Source of the DNA: Psammoneis japonica
Lineage: Eukaryota
DNA length: 43,905 nt
Assembly: GCA_008632985.1 (NCBI GenBank)
Contig: QPGO01000232.1
Coordinates: forward strand, 62,001 to 105,905
Direction: 5' to 3'
Shown: positions 14,269-34,237 of the stretch, piece by piece
Layout: the number at the start of each line of letters is the position of its first letter
Numbering within the stretch: position 1 is the first letter of the stretch
Notes under the pieces: generated by a model
The model's database searches: none
What the model was told of the DNA's origin: nothing
The model's input: only the letters and a program-made list of their open reading frames with translations
Made by a program: the position numbers and the translations under genes

Positions 14269-16810
14269 ATGCAGCCACTGTACAAGGTCCAACCCAAGTC
14301 GGAACAACGATCCGTCTTTGAAAATGCCCGCAATCATGTCAAGCCCGGAAGCTTTTTCCAATTTCTAACCTATCTCTACGCGGAACGCAAGTTTATTCTT
14401 GTCATCTTGATTCACTTTGTTTGTACCATGGTTATTTGGGGTGAGTAGAGTATATTGTATGATTGAGTTGTGTGTATGATTTGCTTACTAATCTCAAACA
14501 TACCGCCGCACCTCTATACCGTACTCCATCACATTACGTACGACAGCCACTTCTTTGTGGTCAAGTTTCATCAGCAAGAAAACAAAGTACCCGAGGACGC
14601 CAATCGCTATTGGTGGAAACGTCTTGCCCCGCCGCTCGAGTTTGGAGCCATGCATGCCATTTTGTTTCAAATGGCACTCCTACCCCTCACCATGGCTCGG
14701 CTCTCTATCGCGGCCGCGTCCAAAACCTCTCTCAACACGTACTTTCCATTCAACAAGAGCCAGCGCATTCATATTCATTTGGGATACGTCTTTGGGAGCA
14801 TTGTTGTGATTGCCACTATTTTCTTTTTTGCCTTTTTTGGATTGCTTTGTTCCGATGGCGAACAAGCTTTTGTGACAAGTTTACGTCGGAAATCATGATT
14901 ACGGGGTACATTACCGTGGCCTTTGTCTTGATTATCTTGTCCACGTCATTTTTTCGGGATTACATGCCATACGAAGTCTTTTATGGCATTCATCATTTGG
15001 TATTTGCCATGTACCTTGTGGTCTTGTTGCATACGATTGATATCAACGTGCGAAAGGACGGACAGAATCGGAGTCAAACCTTCAAGTGGTTTTCGGCGAC
15101 GCTCTTGTACTACGTGTCGGACCGCCTTGCCATGCGCTTAATCATCGCTACAAGACGCGTGTCTTGCAAGCCAAAATTGTCAAGAATACAAAGTCGAGCA
15201 TGATTTTGCTACAGCTCAGACGACCCTCCTTGTTTCAATACGAACCGGGTCAGTATGCACATCTGCGGTTTCCCGACATTGATTCGTATTGGCATCCCTT
15301 TTCGATTGGTAGCAGTCCGGATTCCAACGTGTTGGAGTTTTATATTGAAGTCTATGACGACAAATCGTGGACGGGACGACTCTGTCAATTGTTGGGTAAT
15401 GACGTTAGCCACGAGAATGTTCGTGTTCAAGTCATGGGCCCGTACGGAACACGCTTGGGTGATACTCATCGATACTCTCATGCCATGGCTATTGGCAGTG
15501 GTTCTGGTGTCGTTCCTATTTTGGGTCTCTACAAAAAGCACATTTGTCAGCTACTTCGATTGGATCCACAAACATACTTTGAAGAACAAGCACAGATGCA
15601 TTCACAACTGAAGCGTATGGAACGAGCGCGAGAACAAACACGCGGGTCGTGGCTCAACTACTTTTTGCGGTGTTCACCTCAACCGACGCGACACGAAATG
15701 GGTGTTATTTCTGGAATCTTTGATTCGAGCGATGCCGAAACCAAGGACTTGCGAGAGGCGGCCAAGCGTGCGTCTTTAACCATTTATGGCGTCAATATAT
15801 TGATGCAACTGGTTGTCTTGGGAGTTACCATGTTGGGATTGACCTTATCGTGGAATACCATGCCGTTTGAACTCTACGACGGCATGCGAGAAGTGTTGAT
15901 TGTTGGCTCGATTGTGTTTCAAGGCGCCTTTGCCGTTGTGTCGATTGGATACTGGGACCGCGGCTCGTTGCTGGCGTATGTTGATGTCTTGATTGTCATT
16001 GCTGGTGCCGTGGCGAATTGGTATTGGTTTGAATACGACAAGTGGGCTAACTTTGAAGCGGCTGAACATGTGTATTATATCTTGCTGTTTGGATACATGA
16101 CGGCGCGATTGTGGCATTCGGCCGTCAAGCCACGATACTGTTCGTTGCGGAGCAGTTTGGAACGACAACACACGAGTTCAGCATTGGACAAGCTGCACTT
16201 TGTTTGGATTACGCGTTCATCCACCAACGTTTTGAAGATTGCACCCACAATCATGCAAGAATGGAATGCGCTTGTTGCGGCGTGGGGATTGGAGAATGCC
16301 GTCAAGGTGTGTCAGGTTTCTATTTACGTTACCGACAAGGACAAGGCCGCCGTGGACTATCTCAAGCAGGAGTTGTCCAAGATGCCCCTTTACAAGCAAG
16401 GTGCATTCCATTATGAGCGTCCTGACATTTCCAAATTGTTGGAAGAGCATGCCATGGAACGCATTTATGATGAGAGTCGTCCCACCTCGTCTACCCTCTT
16501 GTGCTTTTGCGGATCTCCCAAGCTATCATCAGTGATAAGCAAAGCCAAGACCATTGTGGATATATCAACAATGATTACGGGAAACAAGTACCACCAAATG
16601 GATTTCGTTTCCGAGAGTTACAGTGCCTACACGAAGCGTCCGTCGTCGTCGAACAATAGCAACGCGGTAGTTGTCGCTGCCTCGGCAAAGACGCCACAGT
16701 ACAGTGTCTTTATGGATTCACCCAGCTTTATGGAGAAGCAACATTCGGGAGATGAATTGGATACGACGGATACCTTTGAAGACAATGAGGACCACCTTAT
16801 TTCCATTTGA
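14269..16810 (+). CDS. NOX: NADPH oxidase / ferric reductase-like (NOX/RBOH) copy 1; exon 1 14269-14440, intron 14441-14546; three 1-bp indels (~14547, ~14869, ~15137)
   Basis: Heme-ligating His in TM helices (IHIHLG, GIHHL..LLH), PGQY, WHPFS (FAD), GPYG, GSGSGVVP, LHFVWITR and CFCGSP (NADPH). Four extra TM helices lie inside the NADPH domain, as in red-algal/diatom NOX. Indels inferred from copy 2. Confidence 0.9.
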
Positions 16811-17019
16811 GACTACAGAGGATCGTGGACGGCACGCAACTTTAGAATTGTTTTAGTTTACCTTGCGCATTTATAATTTATAACTACCTCAGCATACATT
16901 GATTGTCTTCAGCCTGTGATTCATAACTACCCCAGCATGCATTGATCGATTTCAGCTTTTGTGTGTTAGTCTTTTCAATTGAGAACTAGATGCATTTACA
17001 ATGCCTCCAGTTCCATTTG

Positions 17020-17950
17020 AGATGTGCATCTGGCTTTTAGAGGCACATGCTGGGAAGCCATTTTGCTTCATTTTTCCTTGAGCAACTTCCACAAGAAGCT
17101 CGAAAATGCCCAACCTGGCCTGATTGCGAAAGTTCTGCGTGCAGCCAAGATGGAAGACTGCAATGGATCTCCAACTCCTGCCCTTCCCATCTCTGTTGGC
17201 AGTGACACAGAAGGCCCACCATTCGATGAACCTTGTGACTGCCGATCTGTGGTTGGCATGTTGATGCATCCAGTGCCCAACAGCCGTCTGGACATCATCT
17301 GCACTACCCATCAATTTGCTTGGTTCTCCTGTGCTCCAAAAGCCTCCCATGCCATTGCTGTCCAATGCATTCTTTGACACTTGAAGGACACGACTGACAA
17401 AGGGCTCATCCCAGCCCCAACCATGGATCAACGACTTGATTGTCATGTTGATGCCAATTTTGTGGGTCTCTTCCATGTTGAGGATGGACAGGTTCCTGCT
17501 TCTGTTAAGTCTCGCACAGGATGTCCAAGCTGCAGCGGCCCCTCATGGTTTTGTCTCTGCTGTTGGAGGCAGAGAATGTTTCTCTCCCAATCAATGCATG
17601 GCCTCATTCCCCTTTGTGAGATCTTGAAGGAAATCAATGCACATGCTTTTGGTCAGCTGGACAGGAAGAATGGCATCACCACACATGCCAAGGCTTTCCA
17701 ACCCACCAACGATGGAACCAATGCACCCCCCATTGCCTCTGCCAGCATCAGCTTGCTCACACGCCAAAACTGTCCCCACAAACCAAGCACACCATCGTGC
17801 CTTGTCACCAGTTTTGTGCTGAAGTTGAGGCTTTGGAGATCAAGATTGAGCCTGTCAGCTCTGCTGCACAGCTTGCTGACCAGTTTGCTGGGGGTTTGAC
17901 TGCTGCTGATCTGTTCTGCACTTGTTGTGGGGCCCTCATGGGCTGGCGAC
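17020..17950 (+). mobile_element. Decayed Ty1/copia RT-RNaseH fragment, copy 1
   Basis: QPGLIAKVL..MEDCN..PTP, DCRSVVGMLMH, LDCHVDANF, SVKSRTG, QLADQF and LMGW are copia pol C-terminal motifs, with Tyr->Cys/His changes, stops and deletions. Confidence 0.9.
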
Positions 17951-19060
17951 TGTTTGTCCTGCTTCTCTTGATTTTGCAGGCAGGCTGTGAGAAAATGAGT
18001 CAATTTGCTGCTGTTCTGTTGCTTTCCCCAAACAACAATGGCAAGTCTGCCACCCGTGGCAGAATGTGCAATCAAGGAATTGCTGCGGCAACATGAAGAA
18101 AACGCAGCAAGCCACCAAGGAAGAAGAGTGTCCGTCAACGGCTGTTTTGGAGGTCCTGCTTCACTTGAGCTGCACCAATGTAAAAGTGATGCAGGCTTCA
18201 CACTTTTTCATCTTGCAGTCTTCTTTGCAAACATCCTTTTGAAATGCCTGGCACCACGTGCAAAGCTTTTGGGTCCATCAGGAATGAACCGCTCTCACAG
18301 CTCTTTTTGTGCTCGATCGACGACAATGGGGTGAACAACCCAAGGTCCAAATTGTCATGGGTCTTTTTGGCAAATGCAAATGACTGTGCACCAGAGTGGA
18401 GTGGCTTTCCATGAGACAACAAACGCCAACGTTGGAAGACAAGGGTGGGTCTTTTTTCAACAATGGCAGACTTGACAACATGCATTGATTGACCGAGGTG
18501 GCAAAACATGCCACGTGTGCACCAACAACAGCATCATCATTTCTGCTCGACAACAACAGGGGATGATTTCGATTGGTGTTGTTGGTTTGGTTGTTGATGT
18601 TGAAGTGAAGTGCGGCATTGGCGGCCTCTCTTTTTGGCACGCACCGGCCGGCTGGCACGCACCGGTGTGACTGCACCTATGTGGGTGACAGACGGACGGA
18701 CCAACCGGATGGCCACATAGTACGCCCGCCTAAAACCAACATGCGTGCAGCGCAACGCTTGAACCGCACGATCGTTCATCGCGGGAATAAGCATGCAAGC
18801 AGTTGGAAGTTGAAGTTATTGGTTATTGTTCTGTTGTTCTTCTGTTGCTTCATTTAATTCGTTCCTGCCCTTGTCTCACGGGCAAGCGTCGCTGTTCTAC
18901 AGCATAATCGATCTCGCCTTGTTGCCATTGTGTTGGTGCCTGTCTCCTTTGCAGTTGCGTTTCTGCTGAGCAGAGGAACCACCTCTTGTCTCGCGTCTCA
19001 CCGATCCGGACTCCGCAATTTTGATTCTGCATCTCGCAGAAAGACACAAAAACAGCAGAC

Positions 19061-22000
19061 ATGCTTGGTGACATCATCGCCGGCATAGAAGCGGCTTTCA
19101 ACTTGTGCGCCGTGATTTACAAGAGCTATGAAACGGTAAAGATCATGCCGGATTTGGCCAAGACCCTCAAGGACCGCGTACAAATATTCAAACCGCGACT
19201 CGAGAAACTCGTTAGGGAATGCCAGGCATCAGGCACATCACAGAAGGTAATTCCGCTTTTGCATATTCAAAGCTTGAACACGGTGTTGGGTGACATTCAA
19301 AAGTACATGAAGAAGCTTCAGGATGACTCTAAACTACGAAAGTTGAAGAATCGGGTGTTTTATCAGAGTCTCCTGGATGAATATGAAGAGCTCAACACCA
19401 AGCTCAATCGTTGTCGGGATGATCTTAAATTTGACTTTGAGTTTGATGTCGATGCCGAGAGAAAAGCGTTTGAGAATGAAACGAAAGGTCTCCTACAGTG
19501 TCTTATTGATCATCAGGGTCAAGAGCACCGTATTCTGCGCGAGATGCTTTCTGAAGTCCTCAGGTTCATCAAGGGTCACAAAGCGCTAAATCTCAATGAA
19601 CAAAACAGTCCTGCTATTGTGACCGCTTCTGCATTTATGGACAATAGTGACTCTGCAACTCTACGAGCTATCATTGATGAGCAGAGTGCCATTGAATATG
19701 AACTCCCGCCATCGGAGGTCGTTTTAGAAGATATCGAGCTTGGAGCAGGCACCTTTGGTGTCGTATACAAGGCAACATACAATAATCAAGATGTTGCCAT
19801 CAAGAAGCCTCATCGTCGAGAATCGGATGTTTGGCGGAACTCATGAACCAAGAAAGATGCAGCGGCTCGCCTTTTGTTGCCCTTATACACGGCTTTGTTT
19901 ATGTCAATGAGATTCGGTCTATTGTTATGGAGTTCATGCCATGTGGTACTCTAGGAGGTCTACTACGCCACGCAATGGGAAGGGATGGGATTGTGTCCAT
20001 CAGCAAGGACCAGCAAAGTCTCGAGGCCACACTAGCTGCGTACACAGTAATTCAGCTCTTTCACAAGGTTAGTGAGGGAATGCGATTCATCAGTCAACGT
20101 AATGTGATACACCGCGACCTCAAGCCGGAGAATATTCTTCTAAGTCAAACTCTTGACCCCAAGATTGGGGATTTTGGGTCTGCTCGAGAGCTCGCAAACA
20201 GCGCGACTCACCTTTCGGGATCCGCTGCTGGATCTGTATACTATATGGCTCCGGAAGTATTGACGGTCCTTAAAGCTGACAAAGGACAATACTCCTATCC
20301 TGCCGACCAGTACAGTTTTGGAATGATCATGGTTAAATGCTGCCATGGTCTGTTTGGTCAGCAGTCTCGTGTGGACCGGCACGACGAGGACGCGCCTCTT
20401 CCAGAGATTCCTCTTCCTGATGCGTTCCCTTCTTCGGTAACAGATATCAAGAACAATTGCATTGCTTCAGACCCATTGATGCGCTATGGTCGTGGCACCG
20501 CTTCAGAATCACTTCTATCAGAAGCGTTCGAGAAGGTACTGCAGCAATTGGATAGCTCTGTCTCTTATCCAAAGATTGATGGGTATTATGGTGACGACGT
20601 TGCAGAGGTGGCAAATATTGCTCGGATCGCTTTTGAGAGTAAGACGCATCGTGGGGTATCTGGCATTATAACTTCGTCCTCATCGCTGATCCCAACACCC
20701 GGCATGGAGAAGAAGCCATTGAAGGACGGAGAGCCGAGCTACTCCACCGCGTCCTTGTCACATTCGTCTACATCCGCGAAAGAACCGGTTCCTCGTGCAA
20801 GGAAGGAGAAGAAAAAGAAGAAACCGACTGCTGATCTCCGAGTTCAAAAAGAGCAAAGTGCATCGTCTCGCAGAAAAAAGCGTCCTGATCTCCGAGTTCA
20901 AAAAGAGCAAAGTGCATCGTCTCGCAGGAAAAAGCGTCCAACTCGTTCCGGCAGCTCGAAAGAAAAAGGACAACCAGCGCAAACTGGATCATCAGCAATT
21001 GCTTCAAGTGGTCACAATGACAGTGCTGAAAGAGAACGGGGCGTTAAGGACGAGACGCAAAATACAAGCGAATATCATAGCCGCACCAGTCGGGAGAGGT
21101 CCGTCAACAGCACAGCCACAGCAAGCCTTGCGCTATCGGCTGCCGCGTATGTCGCGCCAGATGCTTTCACAGTGACGTCTGGAGACCAAGCTGCACAACC
21201 CGAAGAACCGGACAGAGATGACCGCGTCACAGTTACTTCAGATTCCAACAAAGTGATGGAGATGGATCCAGCACAAGTCGTAGAGGCGGTTCCTGCTACT
21301 TCTGATGGTGGTGGTGGCGGACAGAATGAGAAAGCAAATGACACAACGCGAATTAGTGACGAGGATGAGAATGCTGAAGATGAGCTTCATCGCAAGTACC
21401 TTCGCAAACGATTCATTATTCCGGGCGTTGTATTGTTGGCGATTGCAGCGATTGTCAGTATTGTTGTTGCAGTAAAGCCGTGGGACACAGGTGGTGGAGG
21501 GAGCCCCACTTTCCCCCCTACTGTTTCCCCTACTGTTGCACCCGCCACAGAGACTACCGAACGAGCCACCGGTTTGGTCATGAGTTTGATTGGTATTGAT
21601 ACCGAGTTTGATGAAAATGATTCCGAGTTGTGGGCTACGGCAACCAAAGCATTCGTCGAGGATTATTACAACACTCGTCGTCGTCGTCGTGGCCTTGGCT
21701 ATCTCCAGACCCCTCGTATATTACAAGTATCGAATATACAGAATGTCGAGACGTCTTTGGATGTTACTAACACCATTGTGGTTGAAGATGGCAATGGTGG
21801 AGAACCATCCCTTCGAGTCACATACAACCAAGCTATCACGTATACTTTTGAAGACAGCAGCAACGAAAACATTTCCATGGATGCCATGGTGACCGAACCA
21901 TTCAAGACGTCTGATAGTCGATCGGCCTACCAAAAAGACCTCCAGGCGGCGGGCACCAGTGCTGGAAGCAACATTTTTGACAATTTGATTGGCACTAGTG

Positions 22001-23502
22001 AAGTTTCAACCAGCACAGCTGCTCCGACACCGTCACCTACAAATAGCATTCCAATTACGGAACTACCAACACAAGATCCCGCGTCGCCACCGTCGACTCC
22101 GGGTCCAACGACTCTCAATCCAACATCGTTGCCGACGACAAACCCTACTCCTCGTCCAACTCTCAATCCAACACCTCGTCCTACACTCAATCCAACGCCT
22201 CGTCCAACTCTCAATCCAACTCCACGCCCCACTCCATCACCAGCTCCAACAACACCCAATCCCACCAGTGGTGGTGGCAGTTTGCCGCCAAATGGCCCAT
22301 GGGATCCCGTCGGACAAGTCTTGCACGGCAAGGCTGAAGATGATCGTTTTGGCAAATCCGTGTCCTTGTCTCGTGATGGCAGTGTCATGGCTGTTGGAGC
22401 AAATCAATGGGCATCACCTTCCAATCCCGGCTATGTTGTTGTGCAACGATACAATCCAAACACCCAACAATGGGAACAAATTGGCCAAGAATTGATTGGA
22501 CAAGCCGATCATGACGATTTTGGCAATTCTGTTTCGTTAAATGGCGACGGCACAATTCTTGCGGTTGGAGCTGATGCAAATGACAGTGGTGGAACAAATG
22601 CCGGTCACGTTCGTGTGTTTGAATACAACTCGGCATTGGATCGTTGGGTTCAACTCGGCAGTGACATTCTTGGACAAGACGCTGGTGATTTATTTGGTGA
22701 TTCCGTGTCGCTCTCGGACGCGGGAGACATTCTTGCCGTGGGAGCTTACGGTGATGACACGGAAAATGGCGACGAATCTGGATCGGTTCGATTGTTTCGA
22801 TACGACCGCGGCTCCTCATCCTGGAACCAACTCGGACAAACTCTCATTGGTCAAGCTGCCTATGATTATTTTGGAATTTCCGTTTCGTTGAATGCGCAGG
22901 GAAACATTGTTGGTGTTGGAGCGAGTGGAAATGATGCGGGTGGAAACAATGCGGGTCAAGTGTTGGTGTACGAATACAATTCTGCGTCATCAAAATGGGA
23001 TCCGCTGGGTGATCCAATCAATGGCCAAGTCATTGAAGGCATATTTGGACATTCTGTTTCTCTTGACGACAGCGGTTTGATCGTGGCCGCGGGTGCACTT
23101 GGATATAACAACGAGAGGGTTTTGGTTTATTCGTACAGCCGCTCGACTTTGACATGGAAGCAACGTGACCAAACTCTCTTGACACAACAGCCTGGCAACA
23201 CAATTTTGGTTGGTCCGTGTCATTGAGTGGCAATGGAAATGTCTTGGCGGTCGGAAGCATTGGGCATGACGTCAATGGATTGATCAATGCGGGTCAAGTT
23301 CAAATCTTTCAGTATGACGTCAATGCAGACGAATGGAAGCAAGTTGGAGATGCTTTAAATGGCGAGGCTGAACGTGATTGGTTTGGACATTCCGTGTCCT
23401 TGTCGGCCGACGGAAGCTTCGTTGGAGTTGGTGCACGGAATGCTGACGTCAATGGCGACGAGTCCGGATCGGCGTATGCATTCACAGTAAATGAGGAATT
23501 AG
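19061..23502 (+). CDS. Receptor-like kinase copy 1: MLKL/HeLo-like N-terminal helical domain + TKL kinase + TM + Pro/Thr stalk + 7-blade FG-GAP propeller (~1480 aa after correcting 1-bp indels at ~19830, ~23195, ~23495)
   Basis: Joins ORFs 19061-19846, 19831-23226 and 23217-. Kinase motifs GAGTFG, VAIK, HRDLKPEN, DFG, APE and DQYSFG are present. TM FIIPGVVLLAIAAIVSIVVAV follows RKYLRKR. Seven D-x-FG-x-SVSL...AVGA repeats. Copy 2 is open across each indel. Confidence 0.85.
20831..20938 (+). repeat. 54-bp coding tandem repeat (DLRVQKEQSASSRRKKRP x2); also at ~36008-36115
   Basis: Direct repeat visible in DNA and protein. Confidence 0.9.
22108..22235 (+). repeat. 24-bp coding repeats (PTLNPTPR) forming a mucin-like stalk; also at ~37282-37410
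   Basis: Repeated ACTCTCAATCCAAC units in frame. Confidence 0.85.
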
Positions 23503-25315
23503 AAAATGTATTTTGTATTTCATCCTCTTGTGTCAATCACACTGTATTTTTTGTAGTTTAGTTCACTTGGTAGACCGTACATTGCGTCGCATGGCTCGTG
23601 TCATTGTGTGCTGTTTTTCGCGTTTGTTCCAAAAATCAAAAAAGTCTGTCTGTCGTGCGATTCCGCTAGTCTATCACGAACCACACATCACACACACACA
23701 CATCACACATCGGCTCGCGGTCTTGAACAACCATGACGCTACACCAACAGCACTACGAATCAACATGTAACAACAACAACAACGATGTCATAACGTTTGG
23801 AGGATTATCCGCCTCGTGAGTAGAACACATCAACAATGAGAGTTGTTTTGAACAAACTGTGTTGTTGTTGCATGAGTCGAATGCTGCCGCTTGTGAAAAT
23901 CATTGACACGCTGCTGCTGCCACGCACGCTACAATATTGTTGTTGTACATGTCTACGCACTCTCATACTCATCACTCCTTCTCTTTCACACACTCTCTCT
24001 CTCTCTCTCTTGACTACACGTAATGATTCACTTAAGTGTTGTCAAGACACACAAGTCCTTTGAGGGCTTGACTGCAGCCACCGGGGAGCATGCCCACAGA
24101 GTATGGAATCAGCAGCAGAGCCGGAACCAGTCAATCAAAAGTCAAGCAACTGTCTCAGCAAGCACTCATAGGAATGGTGGAGCGAAGGTATTGTACGAGT
24201 ATACTGGATGCAACCAAAGAACGATTTCTGTGATGCGGTTTGTTCGGTCGCTTCTATTCGGATATGCTGCTGGAGAAACGCGTTGCTGCTGCTGCCACTG
24301 CTCCTACAAAGGACAATAGCGAGTCGCTCGTGGCATGCGCAGCGAAATAAGCTCCTTTTGTTGGATGTGCATCCTTGATGAATATGACGTTGGAGAGAAA
24401 CCAATGGTGCTGCCACGCACGCTGTTGTTGTTGTTGTCATGCATGTCTACGTACTCTCTCAAACGAAATTAAAAATGGCCTCCATCCACACTAGTTTGGG
24501 CGTGCGACTCTGTGAATGTTGCTGAGCTCTTTCGAGATGTGGGCTTTGAACAACGCGTCGGTTATTATGCAGTGATGTGTTTTGAATGTACGTGTTTGAT
24601 GTTGTTTCCATGTATTGCTGATTCATAACCATCTGCAGCGACCTGGGTGGTAATGTATGGATTTTTTGGAAAAGAGTTGCAACTCGTATAAAGTGGATTG
24701 GAAACCACGTGTGTCTCGCGGTCGGACAGTTCTCCAGCACAAACCATGGCGGCGCCTGTTGGATATCATACAGTGAACAAGTAGCGGGTGGAACGGGCTT
24801 GTTGGGAACTGCTGTGGTGGGACTAGACGAAAAAGCGCGATGAGGAAATCAACATCCAAACAACCACAACCGAAGGGGGGTGCACGGTGCCGGTACTGCT
24901 ACTACTACTACTACTGCTACTGCTGTACGAACTATATAACAACAATGACACGGATGATTATGACTTTGGAAATGTCGATATCTTTGTTTCGACCATTCCA
25001 TCGACACCCGTCAATATTAACGATGACAACGACAAGAAGGATGACGAAGAGTATTAGTAGTATCAACAATGGCACTAATAACAATGGCGCGGTGGTGGAA
25101 ATATCATTTCATCCTATGGAGACTTGAAAGCACGATTTGCCGATAAACTCAACAAAAAAAAAAGGGACCGCTTGGCTGCTTGTGGGATGTCTTTGTTCCT
25201 CCCTACTACTGCTGCGAATAATAAGGACAAGGACAATGAAAACTACAATGACCTTGGAGATGCCGATAGAGGAAGGGGTTCCTTTGATACCACATGCGTG
25301 GCGGAATATAAAAAT

Positions 25316-26224
25316 GTACAATTGCAAGAACGAAACTGAATCCTCGAGACGGTTGGGAAGCGATGGAGGATGAAGTCGTGAATCATGAGCGCTGCTCCGA
25401 CTCGACTGTTGTTGCAAATAATATATTGTCGGCCTATACTGTGCAACCCGTCTGGAAGACACTCTCTGCATTGGGGTGTTTGTCTTGGAATCGGTAGAGC
25501 CTGAACCATGGTCTCTCAAAAATTCAAACTCCTGTCTCGGCAAACAATGCAGGCACGGTGGAGCAAGCGTACTGGATGCAACGAACGATTCGTGACGTGG
25601 TCTTGGAATTTTTGCGCTCTCTTCATTTCGCCAGATGCTTTTTTTGGATTTCCAAGAAACTCTCTAGACTGACTGCTCTCCACTCTCTAGCTGTAGCTCT
25701 AGAGATCCCTACATAAAGAGTAACACGTCCCCAGCTGCTAGTAGAGCCACTCTCTCACATGACAGTACAACTTGCAAGAACGAAACTGAATCCTCGAGAC
25801 GGTTGGGAAGCGATGGAGGATGAATTCATGAATCATGAGCGCTGCTCCGACTCGACTGTTGTTGCAAATGATATATTGTCGGCCTATACTCTGCAACCCG
25901 TCTGGAAGACACTCTCTGCATTGCTAAGGAGTAGTTGTCTTGGAGTCGGTAGAGGCTGAACCATGGTCTCTCAAAAATTCAAACTCCTGTCTCGGCAAAC
26001 AATGCAGGCACGGTGGAGCAAGCGTACTGGATGCAACGAACGATTCGTGACGTGGTCTTGGAATTTCTGCGCTCTCTTCATTTCGCCAGATGCTTTTTTT
26101 GGATTTCCAAGAAACTCTCTAGACTGACTGCTCTCCACTCTCTAGCTGTAGCTCTAGAGATCCCTACATAAAGAGTAACACGTCCCAGCTGCCAGTAGAG
26201 CCACTCTCTTGCACGACAGTACAA
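25316..26224 (+). repeat. Tandem duplication of a ~450-bp unit (25316-25764, 25765-26218) bounded by GTACAA
   Basis: Near-identical units starting GTACAA(C)TTGCAAGAACGAAACTGAATCC; GTACAA recurs at 26219. Confidence 0.92.
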
Positions 26225-26633
26225 TAGAGAGAGAGAGTGCTTTGGATTTTAAGAGAGATAATAGAGGACGCACACAGCATGCTATGCTAGCTAGCTGCTT
26301 TCCGTCCCAGCTTCGTGGCACCACGTGTAAAAATTAACCCCCCATTTTTAACCAAATGCCCACCTCGATCGACTGGCAGTAACCAGATACGAAGTTCAGC
26401 ACACTTTTGGGGGCCTAGAGAATGGGGGTGAACGTTAGTTACTAACTAACCAATCACTGAATGCTGACTTTGCACTTGCCCGTGTGACAAAGGTGCACCA
26501 CGAAAAGTTAGTTTTATTTTGAAATACCGAGATACCATGAACAACACATGCCCATTGCATTCTTGCAAGACATTGTTTTTTAAAGACTGGGAGACCGATG
26601 ATGCTCATGTCTTGTGCACTTTGTAGCTCTGCT

Positions 26634-27608
26634 CTAGCTAGCTGGGGTCAAAGTCCAACTGTTTTTTTGGATCAACGATTCGATTCGAATGGGTCGAATT
26701 TCATTCCCGAGTCGTCGTGACTCGTTCACACGGTGCGTGTCTAGTGTTTTCCAATCAACCAGTTCATGCTTGTACCAGTCCGGGAATCCGTCATGTTGAT
26801 GGGTGAAGTGGATTTCGCTGTCGCCATGAAACCTGCATGCGGCAACCGCGGCATTCATGCCGGTTCCGCATCGCTTCCAGTCGCGGTGCCGCCACATGCC
26901 TGCAACTCTTTTTTTGTGGGAGCCTTGTTTGCCTGTAAAGCGCTGCTCAATCAGAGCTGTCATTGGACGTGCAACCGATTCGTTTGGGTTGCCGGGGCCG
27001 TGTGTGTCGTCACAGTGAATGTCCGCATGCCGCGCAAGTCGGAGCTGATCGCCTCGCATCATGGTCTGGCTGCAGCTGGTCCGTGCCACCGCCAAGTTCT
27101 TCCAAGCTGCAGACTGAACAACGCAGTTCAAAATTTTGTCCTCAGCAATGCGAGGTGGAGCATCCGCAGGCAGCTTGTCGTGAGCTGATGCAAACTCAGT
27201 GAGCAAATTTTGGGTGCATCGCTCCTTGTGTGCCACCAGAGCGACGTCAACTGCCTCTGATCTCACAACGAATTTTGGATTGGGAGGTTTGTGCTCCTCC
27301 CAAGATGAACAATGCTGCAGTGACCAAATGACATGCTTGGCCGACTTTGGCGTGACGTCTCTTTTTGACACTGCTTCCAAGAAGTGCCGGTCGACCTGGT
27401 CTCGCGTCAAGTGAGGCGGCCCCGACAGAGCCGGCGATTCGTCCACCCATCTTTTGCATGCACTCCACTCAGTGACAAAGTGCCATCCACCTTGGGTGGT
27501 GTGATGGTTTGGGCCAACAAGTCTCCCATGGAGACTAGAGACACCATCGTGTGGGTCTCTTCTTTGCATTGTGACAGCCTCGAGGGATCGTTTTTGGGGT
27601 GCACCCAC
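26634..27608 (-). mobile_element. Decayed Crypton-like tyrosine-recombinase (Ndc10-like) transposon ORF, copy 1
   Basis: MMRGDQLR (catalytic-Arg-like) and GKQG..KRVAGMWRHRDWKRCGTGMNAAVAACRF resemble the Crypton/Ndc10 G-x-x-RH-x-D-x-x-x-C...RF motif (recalled). Lies in TA-depleted DNA. Confidence 0.6.
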
Positions 27609-28019
27609 CTCACTGTCAAAAGAAAAGAGGTTTTTGAAATCAAACGCTCACTTGTGGCGGTCGACAAGTGGAGTCGTTTCGAAACATGTTGACATTCGAG
27701 TGGGAAGAAAGAACATTTCGACAAGTGGATTTTGTGTCATGCCCTGTTCTGAAGGTTCTTGTCTTCACCAACCACAGGCCTGTCCGGGGTCCGGGAACCA
27801 GTTCCAGGGGTGGTTCCGGCGCCGGCCTCCTGCGGGCAGGAACTGCTGAGGACTCCCCCCGGATGGCTCGGTCAACCCGTGATGTCAGGGGAAAGCGTGC
27901 CCCCCAATCAGCGGTGGTTGTTCCTGCCAACCGAGGTCGCGCGACCCACCACTCGAGACTTGTGACTCAAAGTCACGAGCGCTCGTGCCATTGAGACGAC
28001 TCTCTCTCTCTCTCTCTCT

Positions 28020-29230
28020 CTAGAGTGGCCAGTGGCCTGCTCTCGCTCTCTCTGGAGGCAGAGCCAAAGCAGAGAACAGAGAGCAAGTCCAGAGAGCAGA
28101 GGCCACTGCTGTTGTTGCCATGGTGACTGCTGTTGCCATCTCTGCTGCTGTTGTGGCTCTGCCTCCTCTGCCAGTTTGCTGCTCTGTCATTGCACGAGCA
28201 CTCACGAGCCATCGCATCCATGCCAAGCTCATCTCATCACTGTGTTGCATTGGCGACCACTCATTGCAGCTTTTCAAAGGCCACACTTGACAAAAACCAG
28301 AGCTGTGCACTTTGTGAAGAAATGCTGCAGATGTTTGGTTGGCCAGCTGCAGATCCGCAGCACACCAATGTGAAACATGATGCTGGTCAATTTTGGTTGA
28401 CCCAGAGTTTTCAAACAAGCTGCCCATCACTTTTTTTTGCCTGGCTGCCCCCAACTCTGACTTTTCATTTTTGAGTCTCACTGCAGTTGCTGGGTTTGTT
28501 TTGCACGTGGCTCCTTCAGTGTTTTGCCAGTGCTTTGTCAAATCTTTCATGCCAGCCCTTGTTGGTGAGTTTCCTGCTTGAGCCTGGTTGGAGATCCGGG
28601 ATTCCAGGAAACACAGCCTTGTGCACTTGCAGCAAAATGTCCAAATCTTGATTTGTTGTGCCATTTGCACACACCTTCCAAGCAGTGTCACATCATCCAC
28701 CCACGACTTCTTTGTTCTTGAATCTCAACCCACAAATTTGCCAGCATGTCTTGTTCTCTGATTTTTCACTTCAGCACAGCTCTCTCCAACTCAAAACACT
28801 TTGCTGAGCACATCACAGTTGCTCTGTTGGAAGTCTCAAAAGGTCCCCTGGTGCCAAACTGGTGCAGCATCTCTTGCTTGGGCAATGGCAGCCCAGAGCT
28901 GGTCTTCAGCCATCTCATCACACTCGGTCACCACTGCAAGTCCAATCTCTTTGGCCAAAACTTTCTCTTGCACCACCACCTTTTTGCACTTCAACACAGT
29001 GGGTGCCAGAAATCTGGCTGCTGGCGGGTGGTGTCGCGACAAAGCAAAAGGCATGCTCCAATGTTTTGTGCACAGAGCTTCTGTTGTGATGGTCCAAAAA
29101 ATGACAAATGTTCAGACACCCATGACACCCTGTCAATGTCATCGTCAGCTCCCGCGGGTTTTTGACAAGTTCTCCGTGCAGTGTCAGTTGTCACTGCGGT
29201 GATGGTCTGTGCGCTAATCCGGAGCACATC
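28020..29230 (-). pseudogene. Unidentified TA-depleted decayed ORF, probably part of the same mobile element
   Basis: Protein-like minus-strand frame broken by TGA stops, with no Tyr; no family recognised. Confidence 0.35.
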
Positions 29231-29495
29231 ACCTGCCATGCCAATTTCGAATGATTGCGGTTGATGATTCGTTCGATTCGAGTCCGGGTTCTGAGCTCAC
29301 CGATCATGGATTTACCGCACTGGATGGAGCCGCGGCCGTCGCAAAACAACACCATGATGCCTCTTTACCTCTCTTGTTGATACTACTGTAATTGCATTGT
29401 CATCATGGCTTCGTGGTATACAGAAACAACAATATTGTCGTCGCTGTTGTCTGCTGCTTACGTCATAACAACACCGATGCCGTTCAAGCATACCG

Positions 29496-31980
29496 GTCAA
29501 GCCCGGAAGCTTTTTCCAATTTCTAACCTATCTCTACGCGGAACGCAAGTTTATTCTTGTCATCTTGATTCACTTTGTTTGTACCATGGTAATTTGGGGT
29601 GAGTAGAGTATATTGTATGATTGAGTTGTGTGTGTGTGTGTGTGTGATTTGCTATACTCATCTCAAACATACCGCCGCACCTCTATACCGTACTCCCTAA
29701 CATAATACTACAGCACACTTCTTTGTGGTCAAGTTTCATCAACAAGAAAACAAAGTACCCGAGGACGCAAATCGATATTGGTGGAAACGTCTCGCTCCGC
29801 CACTCGAGTTTGGAGCCATGCATGCCATTTTGTTTCAAATGGCATTCCTACCGCTCACCATGGCTCGGCTCTCCATTGCGGCAGCCTCCAAAACATCTCT
29901 CAATACGTACTTTCCCTTCAACAAGAGTCAGCGCATTCATATTCATTTGGGATACGTCTTTGGGAGCATTGTTGTGATTGCCACGATTTTCTTTTTTGCC
30001 TTTTTTGGATTGCTTTGTTCCGATGGCGAACAAGCGTTTTGTGACAAGTTTACGTCGGAAATCATGATTACGGGGTACATTACCGTGGCCTTTGTCTTGA
30101 TTATCCTCTCTACATCATTCTTTCGAGATTACATGCCATACGAAGTCTTTTATGGCATTCATCATTTGGTATTTGCCATGTACCTGGTGGTCTTGTTGCA
30201 TACGATCGATATCAACGTTCGAAAGGACGGACAGAATCGGAGTCAAACCTTCAAGTGGTTTTCGGCGACACTCTTGTACTACGTTTCGGACCGCCTTGCC
30301 ATGCGGCTTAATCATCGCTACAAGACGCGTGTCCTTCAAGCCAAAATTGTCAAGAATACAAAGTCGAGTATGATTTTGCTACAGCTCAGACGTCCGTCCT
30401 TGTTTCAATACGAACCGGGTCAGTACGCGCATCTTCGGTTTCCCGACATTGATTCGTATTGGCATCCCTTTTCGATTGGAAGCAGTCCGGATTCCAACGT
30501 GTTGGAGTTTTATATTGAAGTCTATGACGACAAATCGTGGACGGGAAAACTCTGTCAATTGTTGGGTAATGACGTTAGCCACGAGAATGTTCGTGTTCAA
30601 GTCACGGGCCCGTACGGAACACGCTTGGGTGATACTCATCGATACTCTCATGCCATGGCTATTGGCAGTGGTTCTGGTGTCGTTCCCATTTTGGGACTCT
30701 ACAAAAAGCACATTTGTCAGCTACTCCGATTGGACCCACAAACATACTTTGAAGAACAAGCTCAAATGCATTCGCAACTCAAGCGTATGGAACGAGCGCG
30801 AGAACAAACACGTGGATCGTGGCTCAACTACTTTTTGCGGTGTTCACCTCAACCGACCCGACACGAAATGGGCGTCATTTCGGGAATCTTTGATTCGAGC
30901 GATGCCGAAACCAAGGACTTGCGAGAGGCGGCCAAGCGTGCGTCTTTACCGATTTATGGCGTCAATATATTGATGCAACTGGTTGTCTTGGGAGTAATCA
31001 TGTTGGGATTGACCTTGTCGTGGAATACCATGCCGTTTGAACTCTACGACGGCATGCGAGAAGTGTTGATTGTTGGCTCGATTGTGTTTCAAGGCGCCTT
31101 TGCCGTTGTGTCGATTGGATACTGGGACCGCGGCTCGTTGCTGGCGTATGTTGATGTTTTGATTGTCATTGCTGGTGCCGTGGCCAATTGGTATTGGTTT
31201 GAGTACGACAAGTGGGCCAACTTTGAAGCGGCAGAGCATGTGTATTACATCTTGTTGTTTGGATACATGACGGCGCGGTTGTGGCATTCGGCCGTCAAGC
31301 CACGATACTGTTCATTGCGGAGCAGCTTGGAACGACAACACACGAGTTCAGCATTGGACAAGCTGCACTTTGTTTGGATTACGCGTTCATCCACCAACGT
31401 TTTGAAGATTGCACCCACAATCATGCAAGAATGGAATGCGCTTGTTGCGGCGTGGGGATTGGAGAATGCCGTCAAGGTGTGTCAGGTTTCTATTTACGTT
31501 ACCGACAAGGACAAGGCCGCCGTGGGCTATCTCAAGCAGGAGTTGTCCAAGACGCCCCTTTACAAGCAAGGTGCATTCCATTATGAGCGTCCTGACATTT
31601 CCAAATTGTTGGAAGAGCATGCCATGGAACGCATTTATGATGAGAGTCGTCCCACCTCGTCTACCCTCTTGTGCTTTTGCGGATCTCCCAAGCTATCATC
31701 AGTGATAAGCAAAGCCAAGACCATTGTGGATATATCAACAATGATTACGGGAAACAAGTACCACCAAATGGATTTCGTTTCCGAGAGTTACAGTGCCTAC
31801 ACGAAGCGTCCGTCGTCGTCGAACAATAGCAACGCGGTAGTTGTCGCTGCCTCGGCAAAGACGCCACAGTACAGTGTCTTTATGGATTCACCCAGCTTTA
31901 TGGAGAAGCAACATTCGGGAGATGAATTGGATACGACGGATACCTTTGAAGACAATGAGGACCACCTTATTTCCATTTGA
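29496..31980 (+). CDS. NOX: NADPH oxidase (NOX/RBOH) copy 2; intron 29599-29713, exon 2 29714-31980; start codon unresolved
   Basis: Uninterrupted 751-aa ORF (29725-31980) with all NOX motifs. The shared part of exon 1 begins at 29496; upstream sequence differs from copy 1. Confidence 0.92.
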
Positions 31981-32189
31981 GACTACAGAGGATCGTGGAC
32001 GGCACGCAACTTTAGAATTGTTTTAGTTTACCTTGCGCATTTATAATTTATAACTACCTCAGCATACATTGATTGTCTTCAGCCTGTGATTCATAACTAC
32101 CCCAGCATGCATTGATCGATTTCAGCTTTTGTGTGTTAGTCTTTTCAATTGAGAACTAGATGCATTTACAATGCCTCCAGTTCCATTTG

Positions 32190-33120
32190 AGATGTGCATC
32201 TGGCTTTTAGAGGCACATGCTGGGAAGCCATTTTGCTTCATTTTTCCTTGAGCAACTTCCACAAGAAGCTCGAAAATGCCCAACCTGGCCTGATTGCGAA
32301 ACTTCTGCGTGCAGCCAAGATGGAAGACTGCAATGGATCTCCAACTCCTGCCCTTCCCATCTCTGTTGGCAGTGACACAGAAGGCCCACCATTCGATGAA
32401 CCTTGTGACTGCCGATCTGTGGTTGGCATGTTGATGCATCCAGTGCCCAACAGCTGTCTGGACATCATCTGCACTGCCCATCAATTTGCTTGGTTCTCCT
32501 GTGCTCCAAAAGCCTCCCATGCCATTGCTGTCCAATGCATTCTTTGACACTTGAAGGACACGACTGACAAAGGGCTCATCCCAGCCCCAACCATGGATCA
32601 ACGACTTGATTGTCATGTTGATGCCAATTTTGTGGGTCTCTTCCATGTTGAGGATGATCAGGTTCCTGCTTCTGTTAAGTCTCGCACAGGATGTCCAAGC
32701 TGCAGCGGCCCCTCATGGTTTTGTCTCTGCTGTTGGAGGCAGAGAATGTTTCTCTCCCAATCAATGCATGGCCTCATTCCCCTTTGTGAGATCTTGAAGG
32801 AAATCAATGCACATGCTTTTGGTCAGCTGGACAGGAAGAATGGCATCACCACACATGCCAAGGCTTTCCAACCCACCAACGATGGAACCAATTCACCCCC
32901 CATTGCCTCTGCCAGCATCAGCTTGCTCACACGCCAAAACTGTCCCCACAAACCAAGCACACCATCGTGCCTTGTCACCAGTTTTGTGCTGAAGTTGAGG
33001 CTTTGGAGATCAAGATTGAGCCTGTCAGCTCTGCTGCACAGCTTGCTGACCAGTTTGCTGGGGGTTTGACTGCTGCTGATCTGTTCTGCACTTGTTGTGG
33101 GGCCCTCATGGGCTGGCGAC
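32190..33120 (+). mobile_element. Decayed Ty1/copia RT-RNaseH fragment, copy 2
   Basis: Duplicate of 17020-17950. Confidence 0.9.
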
Positions 33121-34237
33121 TGTTTGTCCTGCTTCTCTTGATTTTGCAGGCAGGCTGGGAGAAAATGAGTCAATTTGCTGCTGTTCTGTTGCTTTCCCCA
33201 AACAACAATGGCAAGTCTGCCACCCGTGGCAGAATGTGCAATCAAGGAATTGCTGCGGCAACATGAAGAAAACGCAGCAAGCCACCAAGGAAGAAGAGTG
33301 TCCGTCAACGGCTGTTTTGGAGGTCCTGCTTCACTTGAGCTGCACCAATGTAAAAGTGATGCAGGCTTCACACTTTTTCATCTTGCAGTCTTCTTTGCAA
33401 ACATCCTTTTGAAATGCCTGGCACCACGTGCAAAGCTTTTGGGTCCATCAGGAATGAACCGCTCTCACAGCTCTTTTTGTGCTCGATCGACGACAATGGG
33501 GCGAACAACCCAAGGTCCAAATTGTCATGGGTCTTTTTGGCAAATGCAAATGACTGTGCACCGGAGTGGAGTGGCTTTCCATGAGACAACAAACGCCAAC
33601 GTTGGAAACAAGGGTGGGTCTTTTTTCAACAATGGCAGACTTGACAACATGCATTGATTGACCAAGGTGGCAAAACACGCCACGTGTGCACCAACAACAG
33701 CATCATCATTTCTGCTCGACAACAACAGGGGATGATTTCGATTGGTGTTGTTGGTTTGGTTGTTGATGTTGAAGTGAAGTGCGGCATTGGCGGCCTCTCT
33801 TTTTGGCACGCACCGGCCGGCTGGCACGCACCGGTGTGACTGCACCTATGTGGGTGACAGACGGACGGACCAACCGGATGGCCACATAGTACGCCCGCCT
33901 AAAACCAACATGCGTGCAGCGCAACGCTTGAACCGCACGATCGTTCATCGCGGGAATAAGCATGCAAGCAGTTGGAAGTTGAAGTTATTGGTTATTGTTC
34001 TGTTGTTCTTCTGTTATCCCATTGCTTCATTTAATTCGTTCCTGCCCTTGTCTCACGGGCAAGCGTCGCTGTTCTACAGCATAATCGATCTCGCCTTGTT
34101 GCCATTGTGTTGGTGCCTGTCTCCTTTGCAGTTGCGTTTCTGCTGAGCAGAGGAACCACCTCTTGTCTCGCGTCTCACCGATCCGGACTCCGCAATTTTG
34201 ATTCTGCATCTCGCAGAAAGACACAAAAACAGCAGAC

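What the first reader, a model, noticed from the sequence alone, without database searches (positions are those of the whole stretch)
22290..23502. Hypervariable positions repeated on every propeller blade
Seen, copy 1 vs copy 2 (37470-38665). Around FG: EDDRFGK/ADDWFGY, HDDFGN/GDDFGD, DLFGD/DYFGI, YDYFGI/ADHFGR, IEGIFGH/VDGRFGW, RDWFGH/GDVFGG. After GA/GS: NQWASP/DQSS, DA/SW, YG/LY, SG/YL, LGYNN/VGSN, IG/IR, RN/RL. Many are multi-base codon swaps to or from aromatic and charged residues, while scaffold strands and the intracellular part are conserved. Established: these loops form the ligand-binding top face of integrin-alpha-type propellers, and position-specific hypervariability marks fungal HET-E/HNWD WD40 and plant LRR immune receptors. 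Inference: diversifying selection on a non-self recognition surface.
Basis: partly seen in the sequence, partly recalled or inferred. Interest (0 to 1): 0.88.

Follow-up and report, generated by a model that had tools for sequence, protein, structure and literature searches.

The report
Fast-evolving propeller face, diatom receptor kinases
Two neighbouring copies of a diatom surface receptor kinase are identical inside the cell but differ at the same few loop positions on every blade of their outer seven-bladed propeller, a pattern typical of receptors selected to recognise changing targets.

Summary
The window holds a 14.5-kb tandem duplication. Each unit carries an NADPH-oxidase-like gene and an intronless gene of about 1,470 codons. 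That gene encodes an N-terminal helical domain (weakly MLKL_N-like), an apparently active TKL-type kinase, one membrane span, a Pro/Thr-rich stalk and a seven-bladed FG-GAP_2 propeller.

The propellers differ at 57 of 393 residues. The differences pile up in five repeat positions: -3, -1 and +1 around FG, and +1 and +2 after GA (0 of 20,000 shuffles match). In a confident model all five lie in the D-A and B-C loops or at the entry of strand A, which is one face.

At cross-validated hypervariable codons, 38 of 82 first and second positions differ, against 16-18% of four-fold sites. The scaffold is under purifying selection (dN 0.05, dS 0.18).

The conversion tract ends exactly where the propeller starts.

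Two of four frameshifts are assembly errors according to reads.

Diversifying selection on a binding face is well supported for two paralogs. "Non-self recognition" remains inference. No close relatives were found for site models.

The parts
14338..28927 (+). Duplication unit 1 (NADPH-oxidase-like gene plus receptor-kinase copy 1 plus downstream DNA)
   Evidence: Self-BLAST: 14338-23816 matches 29496-38980 at 97.0% over 9,509 columns; 24015-28927 matches 39026-43905 at 97.4%.
29496..43905 (+). Duplication unit 2. It runs to the end of the window.
16384..22295 (+). Homogenised (gene-converted) tract of unit 1, matching 31554-37469 in unit 2. It covers the oxidase 3' part, the spacer and the receptor gene up to the last stalk codon.
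   Evidence: Only 14 substitutions in 5,912 bases. dS is 0 in 190, 476 and 597 codons of the three coding stretches, against dS 0.19 in the oxidase 5' part.
19061..23561 (+). Receptor-kinase copy 1. As assembled, its reading frame is broken at 19829 and at 23194-23204.
   Evidence: ORFs; indel contexts. Read contigs leave out 2 letters at 23198 at full depth.
34238..38665 (+). Receptor-kinase copy 2. As assembled, its reading frame is broken at 35671 and 37522.
   Evidence: ORFs. Read contigs put in a G at 35671 at full depth.
34238..34882 (+). N-terminal all-helical domain, weakly MLKL_N-like (copy 2; copy 1 equivalent 19061-19705).
   Evidence: Pfam MLKL_N E = 1.2e-5, 25.3 bits, below the cut-off of 27. 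Atlas feature hits 0.91-0.94, with MLKL_N or RPW8 on the clusters at ranks 2 and 8 and no common family on ranks 1 and 3. AF2 model all-helical but pLDDT only 56.7.
34913..35665 (+). Protein kinase domain (copy 2). The motifs GxGxxG, VAIK, HRD, DFG and APE are all readable.
   Evidence: Pfam Pkinase E = 1.6e-36, residues 226-476. Alignment. Nearest solved chains are B-Raf, IRAK4 and RAF1.
36589..36657 (+). Single membrane span (copy 2; copy 1 equivalent 21412-21480), preceded by the basic stretch HRKYLRKR.
   Evidence: Hydropathy 2.97 over 19 residues, the only strong hydrophobic segment. Copy 1 translation.
22294..23501 (+). Seven-bladed FG-GAP_2 propeller, copy 1.
   Evidence: Pfam FG-GAP_2 E = 5.5e-26 on blades 1-5; blade register.
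37468..38662 (+). Seven-bladed FG-GAP_2 propeller, copy 2.
   Evidence: Pfam FG-GAP_2 E = 2.7e-38, 130 bits. AF2 pLDDT 95.0, pTM 0.93. Integrin alpha matches.
1398..1541 (+). Relic of a third family member (blade 7 only).
   Evidence: tblastn E = 1e-12. It carries a third distinct residue at 4 of 5 hypervariable columns.
29725..31980 (+). Co-duplicated NADPH-oxidase / ferric-reductase-like gene (copy 2; copy 1 at 14463-16810 with a frame break).
   Evidence: Pfam Ferric_reduct, FAD_binding_8 and NAD_binding_6. Best relatives are diatom proteins.

Best explanation
These are two tandem paralogs of a diatom cell-surface receptor kinase with its N-terminus inside the cell. In order, the protein has a cytosolic helical domain, a TKL-type kinase, one membrane span, a Pro/Thr-rich stalk and an extracellular seven-bladed FG-GAP_2 propeller.

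The duplication is old (neutral divergence about 0.19). A recent gene conversion erased all divergence from the middle of the oxidase gene to the last stalk codon, and it stopped exactly where the propeller begins.

Within the propeller the strands are kept by purifying selection. About five positions per blade have been replaced at three to four times the neutral rate, often by Asp, Gly, Arg, Tyr or Trp. All five lie in the D-A and B-C loops or at the entry of strand A, and together they form one face around the central axis.

The most likely cause is positive diversifying selection on a ligand-binding face, so that the two copies recognise different extracellular targets.

Inferred, not shown: the target is a variable biotic molecule (a microbe, parasite or virus, or a mating partner); binding is signalled by the kinase; and the N-terminal domain may be an MLKL/RPW8-like output module.
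For: Shown:
- Differences cluster in register: 0 of 20,000 shuffles reach the observed statistic. Cross-validated, 25 of 41 against 32 of 352 residues differ.
- The rate exceeds neutral. At hypervariable codons 38 of 82 first and second positions differ, against 28 of 178 four-fold sites in the scaffold and 43 of 239 in the oxidase gene (p = 5e-7 and 5e-8). NG86 values: hypervariable dN 0.68, scaffold dN 0.049, scaffold dS 0.18.
- Baseline age: the oxidase 5' part has dS 0.19 and dN 0.006, while the converted tract has dS 0.
- Face: 41 of 57 replacements fall in D-A loop columns, B-C loop columns or the FG+1 column, which together are 26 of 60 columns. The model has pLDDT 95.
- The fold is integrin-alpha-like.
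- The relic blade shows a third state at 4 of 5 hypervariable columns.
- Residues at these columns are rich in D, G, R, Y and W.
- The genes are probably intact: 2 of 4 frame breaks are contradicted by read contigs at full depth.
- A 47%-identical relative has the same inner module with a leucine-rich-repeat-like outer domain. The LRR assignment is my reading; Pfam gave no LRR family for its shorter cluster-mate P0122, and the 786-residue sequence itself was not scanned. This suggests a modular receptor family.
Against: - Only two full sequences and a 48-residue relic are available, so no site-model test was run and no direction of change can be given.
- The same columns are also the unconserved ones across the wider, mostly bacterial, FG-GAP_2 family (consensus), so low constraint contributes to the pattern.
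- Two frame breaks (19829 and 37522) are unresolved.
- One search listed no RNA run, so expression could not be examined.
- The reads come from one sample, probably the source of the assembly, so they are not independent.
- The face assignment rests on strand topology, because model coordinates could not be inspected.
- The ligand, and any immune role, are untested.
Confidence: 0.65

Rival explanations
1. Neutral drift. The loop positions simply lack constraint, and an old duplication let them saturate. No selection for diversity is involved.
For: The same columns are 'x' in the consensus of 25 distant homologs. The duplication is old (dS about 0.19).
Against: Unconstrained sites should match the neutral rate, not exceed it. 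In fact 46% of first and second positions differ, against 16-18% of four-fold sites. Hypervariable dN is 0.68 against dS 0.18.
Confidence: 0.12
2. A mutational mechanism rather than selection. Short templated conversions from other family members, or locally targeted mutagenesis, would write multi-base changes and small indels into the loops.
For: - 30 of 58 replaced codons differ by two or three bases.
- In-frame 6- and 3-base indels sit in B-C loops.
- Read contigs in the propellers are short and numerous, with 2-4 times the summed depth of the flanks.
- Three joints link different blades of the two copies.
- One loose end shows a third version of the blade-1 loop.
- A relic blade lies in the window.
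Against: Apart from the single relic there is no donor cassette in the window, and the Pfam scans gave no reverse transcriptase. Those scans covered most, not all, of the 35 ORFs of 150 residues or more listed. Synonymous differences in the scaffold are spread over all blades at the neutral level, as expected for in-place divergence. At dN about 0.7, multi-hit codons are expected anyway.
Confidence: 0.13
3. Assembly artefact. The two 'copies' are two haplotypes of one locus placed in tandem, or a collapse of several paralogs. The pattern would then be allelic, or chimeric.
For: The assembly has many indel errors (12 listed places). Depth of the identical tract is only about 1.3 times that of unique parts, not 2 times.
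Against: A 1,366-base read contig runs from unit 1 into the inter-unit spacer (28031-29365), and later bins are covered. Read contigs agree with nearly all propeller letters of both copies. Even if the copies were alleles, the position-specific excess would stand.
Confidence: 0.08
4. Both copies are decaying pseudogenes, since each has two frame breaks.
For: There are four frame breaks in the assembly, and no RNA run was listed.
Against: Read contigs correct two of the four at full depth. All four lie in or next to short base runs. Scaffold dN/dS is about 0.27. The oxidase gene is also broken in the assembly.
Confidence: 0.05

Closest known systems
Podospora HET-D/HET-E/HNWD WD40 repeat domains (Paoletti et al. 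2007, PMC1805685; abstract and passages read)
   Same: A beta-propeller in which a few codon positions per repeat, on the interaction face, are under positive diversifying selection among paralogs. Gene conversion operates in the family.
   Different: There, the repeats are up to 100% identical to each other and are shuffled within and between genes, in cytosolic NACHT receptors. Here the blades are 42% identical, both copies have seven blades, the fold is FG-GAP_2, the domain is extracellular, and conversion has homogenised the non-propeller part instead.
Integrin alpha-subunit head propeller
   Same: A seven-bladed FG-GAP-type propeller; best structural matches at TM 0.65-0.71. In integrins the D-A (4-1) and B-C (2-3) loops form the ligand-binding face (recalled from established knowledge).
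   Different: Here the A-B hairpins are 5 residues long and have no long Asp-rich loop (my reading). There are no thigh or calf domains. The membrane orientation is opposite, with a kinase on the cytosolic N-terminus. Sequence identity is 16-20%.
Bacterial seven-blade FG-GAP_2 surface proteins (many with a T9SS sorting domain)
   Same: These are the closest sequence relatives of the propeller, at 40-48% identity over 86-100% of it.
   Different: They are secreted or surface proteins without a kinase. Nothing is known here about their variability.
Plant LRR receptor kinases and receptor-like proteins, and brown-algal beta-propeller receptor kinases (bioRxiv 10.1101/2024.02.19.579948; passages read)
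   Same: A single-pass receptor kinase of the TKL group with a repeat ectodomain. Plant immune members show position-specific diversifying selection in tandem clusters (recalled).
   Different: Those have a signal peptide, an N-terminal ectodomain and a C-terminal kinase. Here the order is reversed and an extra N-terminal helical domain is present. The brown-algal propeller is called a QAD domain, and its relation to this one was not tested.
MLKL, plant MLKLs and RPW8-type helical bundles
   Same: An N-terminal helical domain is followed directly by a TKL-type kinase fold. The matches are weak: Pfam 25.3 bits; Atlas 0.91-0.94; VIA Z 8.6 to the human MLKL N-domain over 137 of 152 residues and Z 7.8 to AtMLKL3.
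   Different: MLKL is a soluble pseudokinase (recalled). Here the kinase motifs are intact and the protein is membrane-anchored with an ectodomain. The matches are below curated or meaningful thresholds.

Membership tests
FG-GAP_2 repeat propeller (Pfam PF14312) | Profile match above the curated cut-off, in several repeats | tested here: met
   130.3 bits against a cut-off of 23, in 5 stretches (copy 2); 90.9 bits (copy 1 blades 1-5).
FG-GAP_2 repeat propeller (Pfam PF14312) | Closed seven-bladed beta-propeller | tested here: met
   AF2 pLDDT 95.0, pTM 0.93; 27 strands of 3 or more residues, arranged as four per blade across seven blades.
Integrin alpha subunit | Head propeller fold | tested here: met
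   Foldseek E = 1e-15 to 1e-13, TMq 0.65-0.71 to many integrin alpha chains.
Integrin alpha subunit | Long Asp-rich Ca-binding hairpins in the strand 1-2 loops of blades 4-7 | tested here: not met
   A-B loops are 5 residues long in all seven blades. The motif definition is recalled.
Integrin alpha subunit | Type I orientation with thigh/calf legs and a short cytosolic tail | tested here: not met
   The propeller is C-terminal. The N-terminal 477 residues are a helical domain plus a kinase. The basic residues precede the membrane span.
MLKL-like (four-helix bundle plus pseudokinase) | MLKL_N profile match above the curated cut-off | tested here: inconclusive
   25.3 bits, E = 1.2e-5, cut-off 27. 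The relative P0123 scores 14.2 bits.
MLKL-like (four-helix bundle plus pseudokinase) | Four-helix bundle plus brace helices before the kinase | tested here: inconclusive
   The model is all-helical but has pLDDT 56.7. VIA Z 8.6 and 7.8 to MLKL N-domains, in the range that helical bundles reach by chance.
MLKL-like (four-helix bundle plus pseudokinase) | Catalytically dead kinase domain | tested here: not met
   GxGxxG, VAIK, HRD, DFG and APE are all present. The motif names are recalled.
HNWD/HET-E-type hypervariable repeats | Position-specific hypervariability on the propeller's interaction face | tested here: met
HNWD/HET-E-type hypervariable repeats | Near-identical repeats undergoing concerted evolution and repeat-number change | tested here: not met
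   Blade-to-blade identity has mean 0.42 and range 0.27-0.67. Both copies have seven blades.
Receptor kinase (single-pass, TKL group) | Kinase domain plus one membrane span plus a repeat ectodomain | tested here: met
   The membrane span was judged by hydropathy only; no dedicated predictor was available.
Sites under positive selection (codon site models) | omega > 1 at named sites by likelihood-ratio test over a gene tree | not testable with these tools
   Only two sequences and a one-blade relic are available. No closer relatives than 48% identity were found, metagenome scans were empty and no genome is held.

The most novel reading that the evidence does not exclude
Diatoms carry a family of single-chain surface immune receptors. 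A hypervariable extracellular domain (an FG-GAP_2 propeller here; what reads as an LRR-type domain in a relative) is wired through a TKL kinase to an N-terminal MLKL/RPW8-like membrane-disrupting bundle. Sensing and necroptosis-like execution would then sit in one transmembrane protein. It is duplicated together with an NADPH oxidase, and specificities are kept apart while gene conversion homogenises the signalling half.
Probability: 0.2. Interest if true: 0.85.

Novelty: new variant of a known kind. Interest (0 to 1): 0.62.

Why it matters
Little is known about how diatoms, major marine primary producers, recognise viruses, parasites, bacteria or mates at the cell surface.

This locus offers a concrete candidate. 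It has the evolutionary signature of plant and fungal recognition receptors, but on a different scaffold (an FG-GAP_2 propeller) and in a reversed receptor-kinase architecture. Its possible cell-death-type N-terminal domain adds to the interest.

It names about 35 residues to mutate or swap, and it gives a clean natural experiment: identical signalling halves with different propeller faces.

My searches of the held library listed no paper describing hypervariable FG-GAP propellers or MLKL-like receptor kinases in diatoms. The supplements of the brown-algal preprint (Figure S9B, Table S10) may list related stramenopile architectures, and I could not see them.

Tried and rejected
- Whole genome: none is held, so other paralogs could not be collected.
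- Protein searches with the propeller gave no relative above 48% identity.
- A search of 1.84 billion representatives with the inner 477 residues gave only two that cover the N-domain plus kinase.
- Two metagenome scans gave nothing useful: one search found none, and one search found one distant kinase locus.
- Earlier findings of this scan: nothing.
- No RNA holder was listed.
- N-domain: a PDB sequence search gave only a chance hit. A profile search gave kinases only. The fold model was of low confidence. In the VIA search, generic and designed helical bundles rank above MLKL, so the fold assignment stays open.
- HNWD-type repeat shuffling is rejected, because the blades are 42% identical.
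- A retroelement-type diversity generator is rejected for lack of any reverse transcriptase among the ORFs scanned or any template repeat. In addition, changes at the hypervariable codons comprise 16 transitions and 36 transversions and show no single-base bias in the list.
- The pseudogene reading is rejected as the main explanation.
- The part of copy 1 from 19000 to 20327 had no contigs laid on it, because identical words were laid on copy 2. The break at 19829 is therefore unresolved.
- No row for 37522 was among the indel rows shown (6 more rows were not shown).
Full report
WHAT IS THERE

The window carries a tandem segmental duplication: 14338-28927 against 29496-43905, at 97% identity overall. 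Each unit holds two genes.

The first is an NADPH-oxidase / ferric-reductase-like gene (Pfam Ferric_reduct, FAD_binding_8, NAD_binding_6).

The second lies about 2.2 kb downstream on the same strand and is a long intronless gene (copy 1 at 19061-23561, copy 2 at 34238-38665). Its product reads, from the N-terminus:
- A helical domain of about 215 residues.
- A protein kinase domain (Pkinase E = 1.6e-36).
- A low-complexity basic stretch.
- One strongly hydrophobic span (hydropathy 2.97), preceded by HRKYLRKR.
- An acidic linker and a Pro/Thr-rich stalk.
- Seven FG-GAP_2 repeats (130 bits against a cut-off of 23).

There is no other strong hydrophobic segment, and the basic residues sit on the N-terminal side of the span. 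The kinase is therefore inferred to be cytosolic and the propeller extracellular.

The best relatives of the oxidase gene are diatom proteins: 55% identity to an Asterionellopsis-labelled transcript, then Seminavis, Ditylum, Epithemia and Cylindrotheca. The window is therefore from a diatom.

THE OBSERVATION

A mismatch profile of the two units shows three regimes:
- About 4% divergence in 14400-16380.
- 14 substitutions in the 5,912 bases from 16384 to 22295, with none between 18510 and 21709.
- 147 mismatches in the seven 200-base bins from 22200 to 23599 (about 10%).

Divergence begins at 22296, the second codon of the propeller domain as I delimit it.

Of 395 propeller codons compared, 301 are identical, 36 differ only synonymously and 58 change the residue. 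Of those 58, 28 differ by one base, 19 by two and 11 by three.

POSITION SPECIFICITY

With the 14 blades in register, 57 of 393 compared residues differ. Five register columns carry 4 of 6, 5 of 6, 6 of 7, 5 of 7 and 5 of 7 differences. These are three before F, one before F, one after FG, and the first two residues after GA.

Differences were shuffled within each blade. This gave a co-occurrence statistic of 23.4 +/- 4.2 (maximum 43) against an observed 64; 0 of 20,000 shuffles reached it.

To avoid choosing sites on the data they are tested on, I predicted the variable columns of each blade from the other six. At predicted columns 25 of 41 residues differ, against 32 of 352 elsewhere (Fisher p = 1e-13).

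A relic of a third family member (one blade, 1398-1541) has a third distinct residue at 4 of the 5 columns. It differs at 7-10 of 15 bases there, against 20-22% of scaffold bases.

The 5' part of the oxidase gene gives a neutral yardstick for the age of the duplication: dS 0.19, dN 0.006 over 553 codons. The oxidase 3' part (190 codons), the receptor's N-domain and kinase (476 codons) and its linker and stalk (597 codons) have dS of 0 to 0.001.

So the identity of the intracellular half is not conservation by selection. It is a recent gene-conversion tract, and its 3' end coincides with the start of the propeller.

The propeller scaffold has dS 0.18, the same age as the yardstick, and dN 0.049, which indicates purifying selection.

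The cross-validated hypervariable codons have dN 0.68. More robustly, 38 of 82 first and second codon positions differ there. The comparison values are 28 of 178 four-fold degenerate sites in the scaffold, 43 of 239 in the oxidase gene, and 33 of 704 first and second positions in the scaffold (Fisher p = 5e-7 and 5e-8).

Sites that were merely unconstrained should reach the neutral rate, not three times that rate.

Changes at these codons are mostly transversions (36 against 16 transitions; elsewhere 36 against 47). The residues found there are dominated by Asp, Gly, Arg, Tyr and Trp.

STRUCTURE

An AlphaFold2 model of copy 2's propeller (380 residues, 28-row alignment) is confident, with pLDDT 95.0 and pTM 0.93. 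Its best matches among solved structures are integrin alpha head propellers (E = 1e-15 to 1e-13, TMq 0.65-0.71).

Mapping the register onto the model's strands gives the order: strand D, D-A loop, strand A (FGxSVSL), a five-residue A-B hairpin, strand B (ending in GA), B-C loop, strand C.
- The FG-3 and FG-1 columns lie in the D-A loop.
- FG+1 is the third residue of strand A.
- GA+1 and GA+2 open the B-C loop.
- A weaker column (3 of 7 blades) closes the B-C loop.

In a four-stranded antiparallel blade, the D-A and B-C loops lie on the same face. This is the face used for ligand binding in integrins and WD40 proteins (established knowledge; for WD40 see PMC1805685, passages).

Counted from the printed lines:
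- 41 of 57 replacements are in D-A or B-C loop columns or the FG+1 column (26 of 60 columns).
- 7 are in the opposite-face loops.
- 9 are in other strand positions.

I could not inspect coordinates, so contiguity of the patch is inferred from topology.

ARE THE GENES INTACT AND THE LETTERS REAL?

Each copy has two frame breaks in the assembly: 19829 and 23194-23204 in copy 1, and 35671 and 37522 in copy 2. All are in or beside short base runs.

Contigs of two public runs were laid on 19000-38900. The two runs come from one sample, which is probably the source of the assembly.
- At 23198 they leave out two letters, at full depth in both runs. This restores the frame, and the three codons then read Gly-Asn-Asn where copy 2 has Trp-Asp-Asp.
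- At 35671 they put in a G, at full depth in both runs.

The other two breaks were not resolved. Twelve indel discrepancies were listed over the 19.9 kb, so the assembly is indel-prone.

Only four alternative letters were listed inside the two propellers. Two of them, at partial depth, are Asp-to-Glu changes at hypervariable columns of copy 2.

Three features hint that more alleles or paralogs with the same scaffold exist in that sample (inference):
- Summed contig depth in the propeller bins is 2-4 times that of the flanks.
- Three joints link different blades of the two copies.
- One loose end spells a third version of the blade-1 B-C loop.

THE INNER HALF

The kinase shows all the usual catalytic motifs (reading). 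Its nearest solved relatives are B-Raf, IRAK4 and RAF1, that is, the TKL group.

The N-terminal 215 residues match Pfam MLKL_N just below the cut-off (25.3 bits against 27, E = 1.2e-5).

By language-model features, the Atlas clusters at ranks 1-3 score 0.93-0.94. Ranks 1 and 3 carry no common Pfam family. Rank 2, a fungal cluster, carries MLKL_N on 26% of its members. A plant cluster at rank 8 (score 0.91) carries MLKL_N on 62% and RPW8 on 16% of its members.

The fold model is all-helical but of low confidence (pLDDT 56.7). A wide structural comparison lists the human MLKL N-domain (Z 8.6, 137 of 152 residues), AtMLKL3 (Z 7.8), a barley MLA coiled coil (Z 7.8) and the NRG1.1 CC-R domain (Z 7.1). 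These sit among generic and designed bundles that score higher, in a range that helical bundles reach by chance.

The first 19 residues are moderately hydrophobic. This is a lead, not a membership.

Among 1.84 billion representatives, only two cover this domain together with the kinase, at 47-48% identity. A 786-residue member of one of those clusters has the same inner module, membrane span and Pro/Thr stalk. Its outer domain reads as a leucine-rich-repeat type. That is my reading of the sequence. It was not tested by a family scan of this protein, and Pfam gave no LRR family for its shorter cluster-mate P0122.

MECHANISM

Most likely (0.65): after an old tandem duplication, the two receptors were selected to bind different extracellular targets through the propeller's loop face. 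Later gene conversion homogenised the rest of the unit but not the propeller and about 1.4 kb downstream of it. That could be chance, or conversion into the propeller may have been selected against.

The nature of the ligand is unknown. An immune-type target is my leading guess (about 0.35-0.4). Mate or cell-cell recognition is the main alternative.

Rivals are neutral drift (0.12), a templated or targeted mutational process (0.13), assembly or haplotype artefact (0.08) and pseudogenes (0.05).

COMPARISON AND NOVELTY

The closest analogue in logic is the Podospora HNWD/HET-E WD40 system: four positively selected positions per repeat on the propeller platform (PMC1805685; abstract and passages). 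The defining repeat homogeneity and repeat shuffling of that system are absent here.

The closest fold is the integrin alpha head, but neither the integrin architecture nor its Ca-binding loops are present.

The closest sequences are bacterial FG-GAP_2 surface proteins (40-48% identity).

Stramenopile FG-GAP proteins and brown-algal propeller receptor kinases are in print (10.1101/2024.02.19.579948 and PMC13524835; passages read). Neither passage describes this architecture or hypervariability. Supplements of the preprint were not available to me.

I rate this a new variant of a known kind.

Noticed in passing
window 14463-16810 and 29725-31980: An NADPH-oxidase/ferric-reductase-like gene is duplicated together with the receptor kinase, 2.2 kb upstream on the same strand. 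Its 5' part has dS 0.19 and its 3' part dS 0, so a conversion boundary lies inside the gene near 16384. A receptor kinase next to an oxidase recalls the plant immune pairing of receptor kinase and RBOH (recalled).
   Followed up: partly
window 19829, 23198, 35671, 37522 and other places in 19000-38900: The assembly is indel-prone. Twelve indel discrepancies with read contigs are listed and six more were not shown. Copy 1 of the oxidase gene is also split into two frames.
   Followed up: partly
window 37585 (loose end of a read contig of X1): A contig that fits copy 2 from 37585 onward carries a different upstream end, spelling a third version of the blade-1 loop after GA. Joints 22326>37862 and 22748>38068 link different blades of the two copies. 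Further alleles or paralogs probably exist in the sample.
   Followed up: no
window 1398-1541: A solitary one-blade relic of a third family member, with no further family sequence around it (tblastn).
   Followed up: partly
window 20831-20939 and 36008-36116: A 54-base tandem duplication inside the cytosolic linker repeats an 18-residue basic peptide twice in both copies.
   Followed up: no
window 25316-26224 and 40299-41208: Two tandem copies of a unit of about 455 bases (94-96% identical) lie downstream of each receptor gene.
   Followed up: no
window 23600-25000 against 38760-40000: The island of divergence continues about 1.4 kb past the stop codon, as patches of substitutions and large indels. 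Identity then returns to about 99%.
   Followed up: partly
protein P0273 (relative): The same N-domain, kinase, membrane span and Pro/Thr stalk are joined to what reads as a leucine-rich-repeat-type ectodomain. This suggests ectodomain swapping in the family. The sequence is from metagenome records.
   Followed up: partly
window 1964-2593 (-), 11420-12262 (-), 7050-7056: A fragment of a TLC ATP/ADP transporter, a PP2C phosphatase gene and a run of seven N. Also, 1792-2186 repeats at 8443-8835 (80%).
   Followed up: no
window 23495 against 38658: A one-base difference just before the stop gives copy 1 a tail of about 20 extra residues in the assembly. Whether it is real was not resolved.
   Followed up: no
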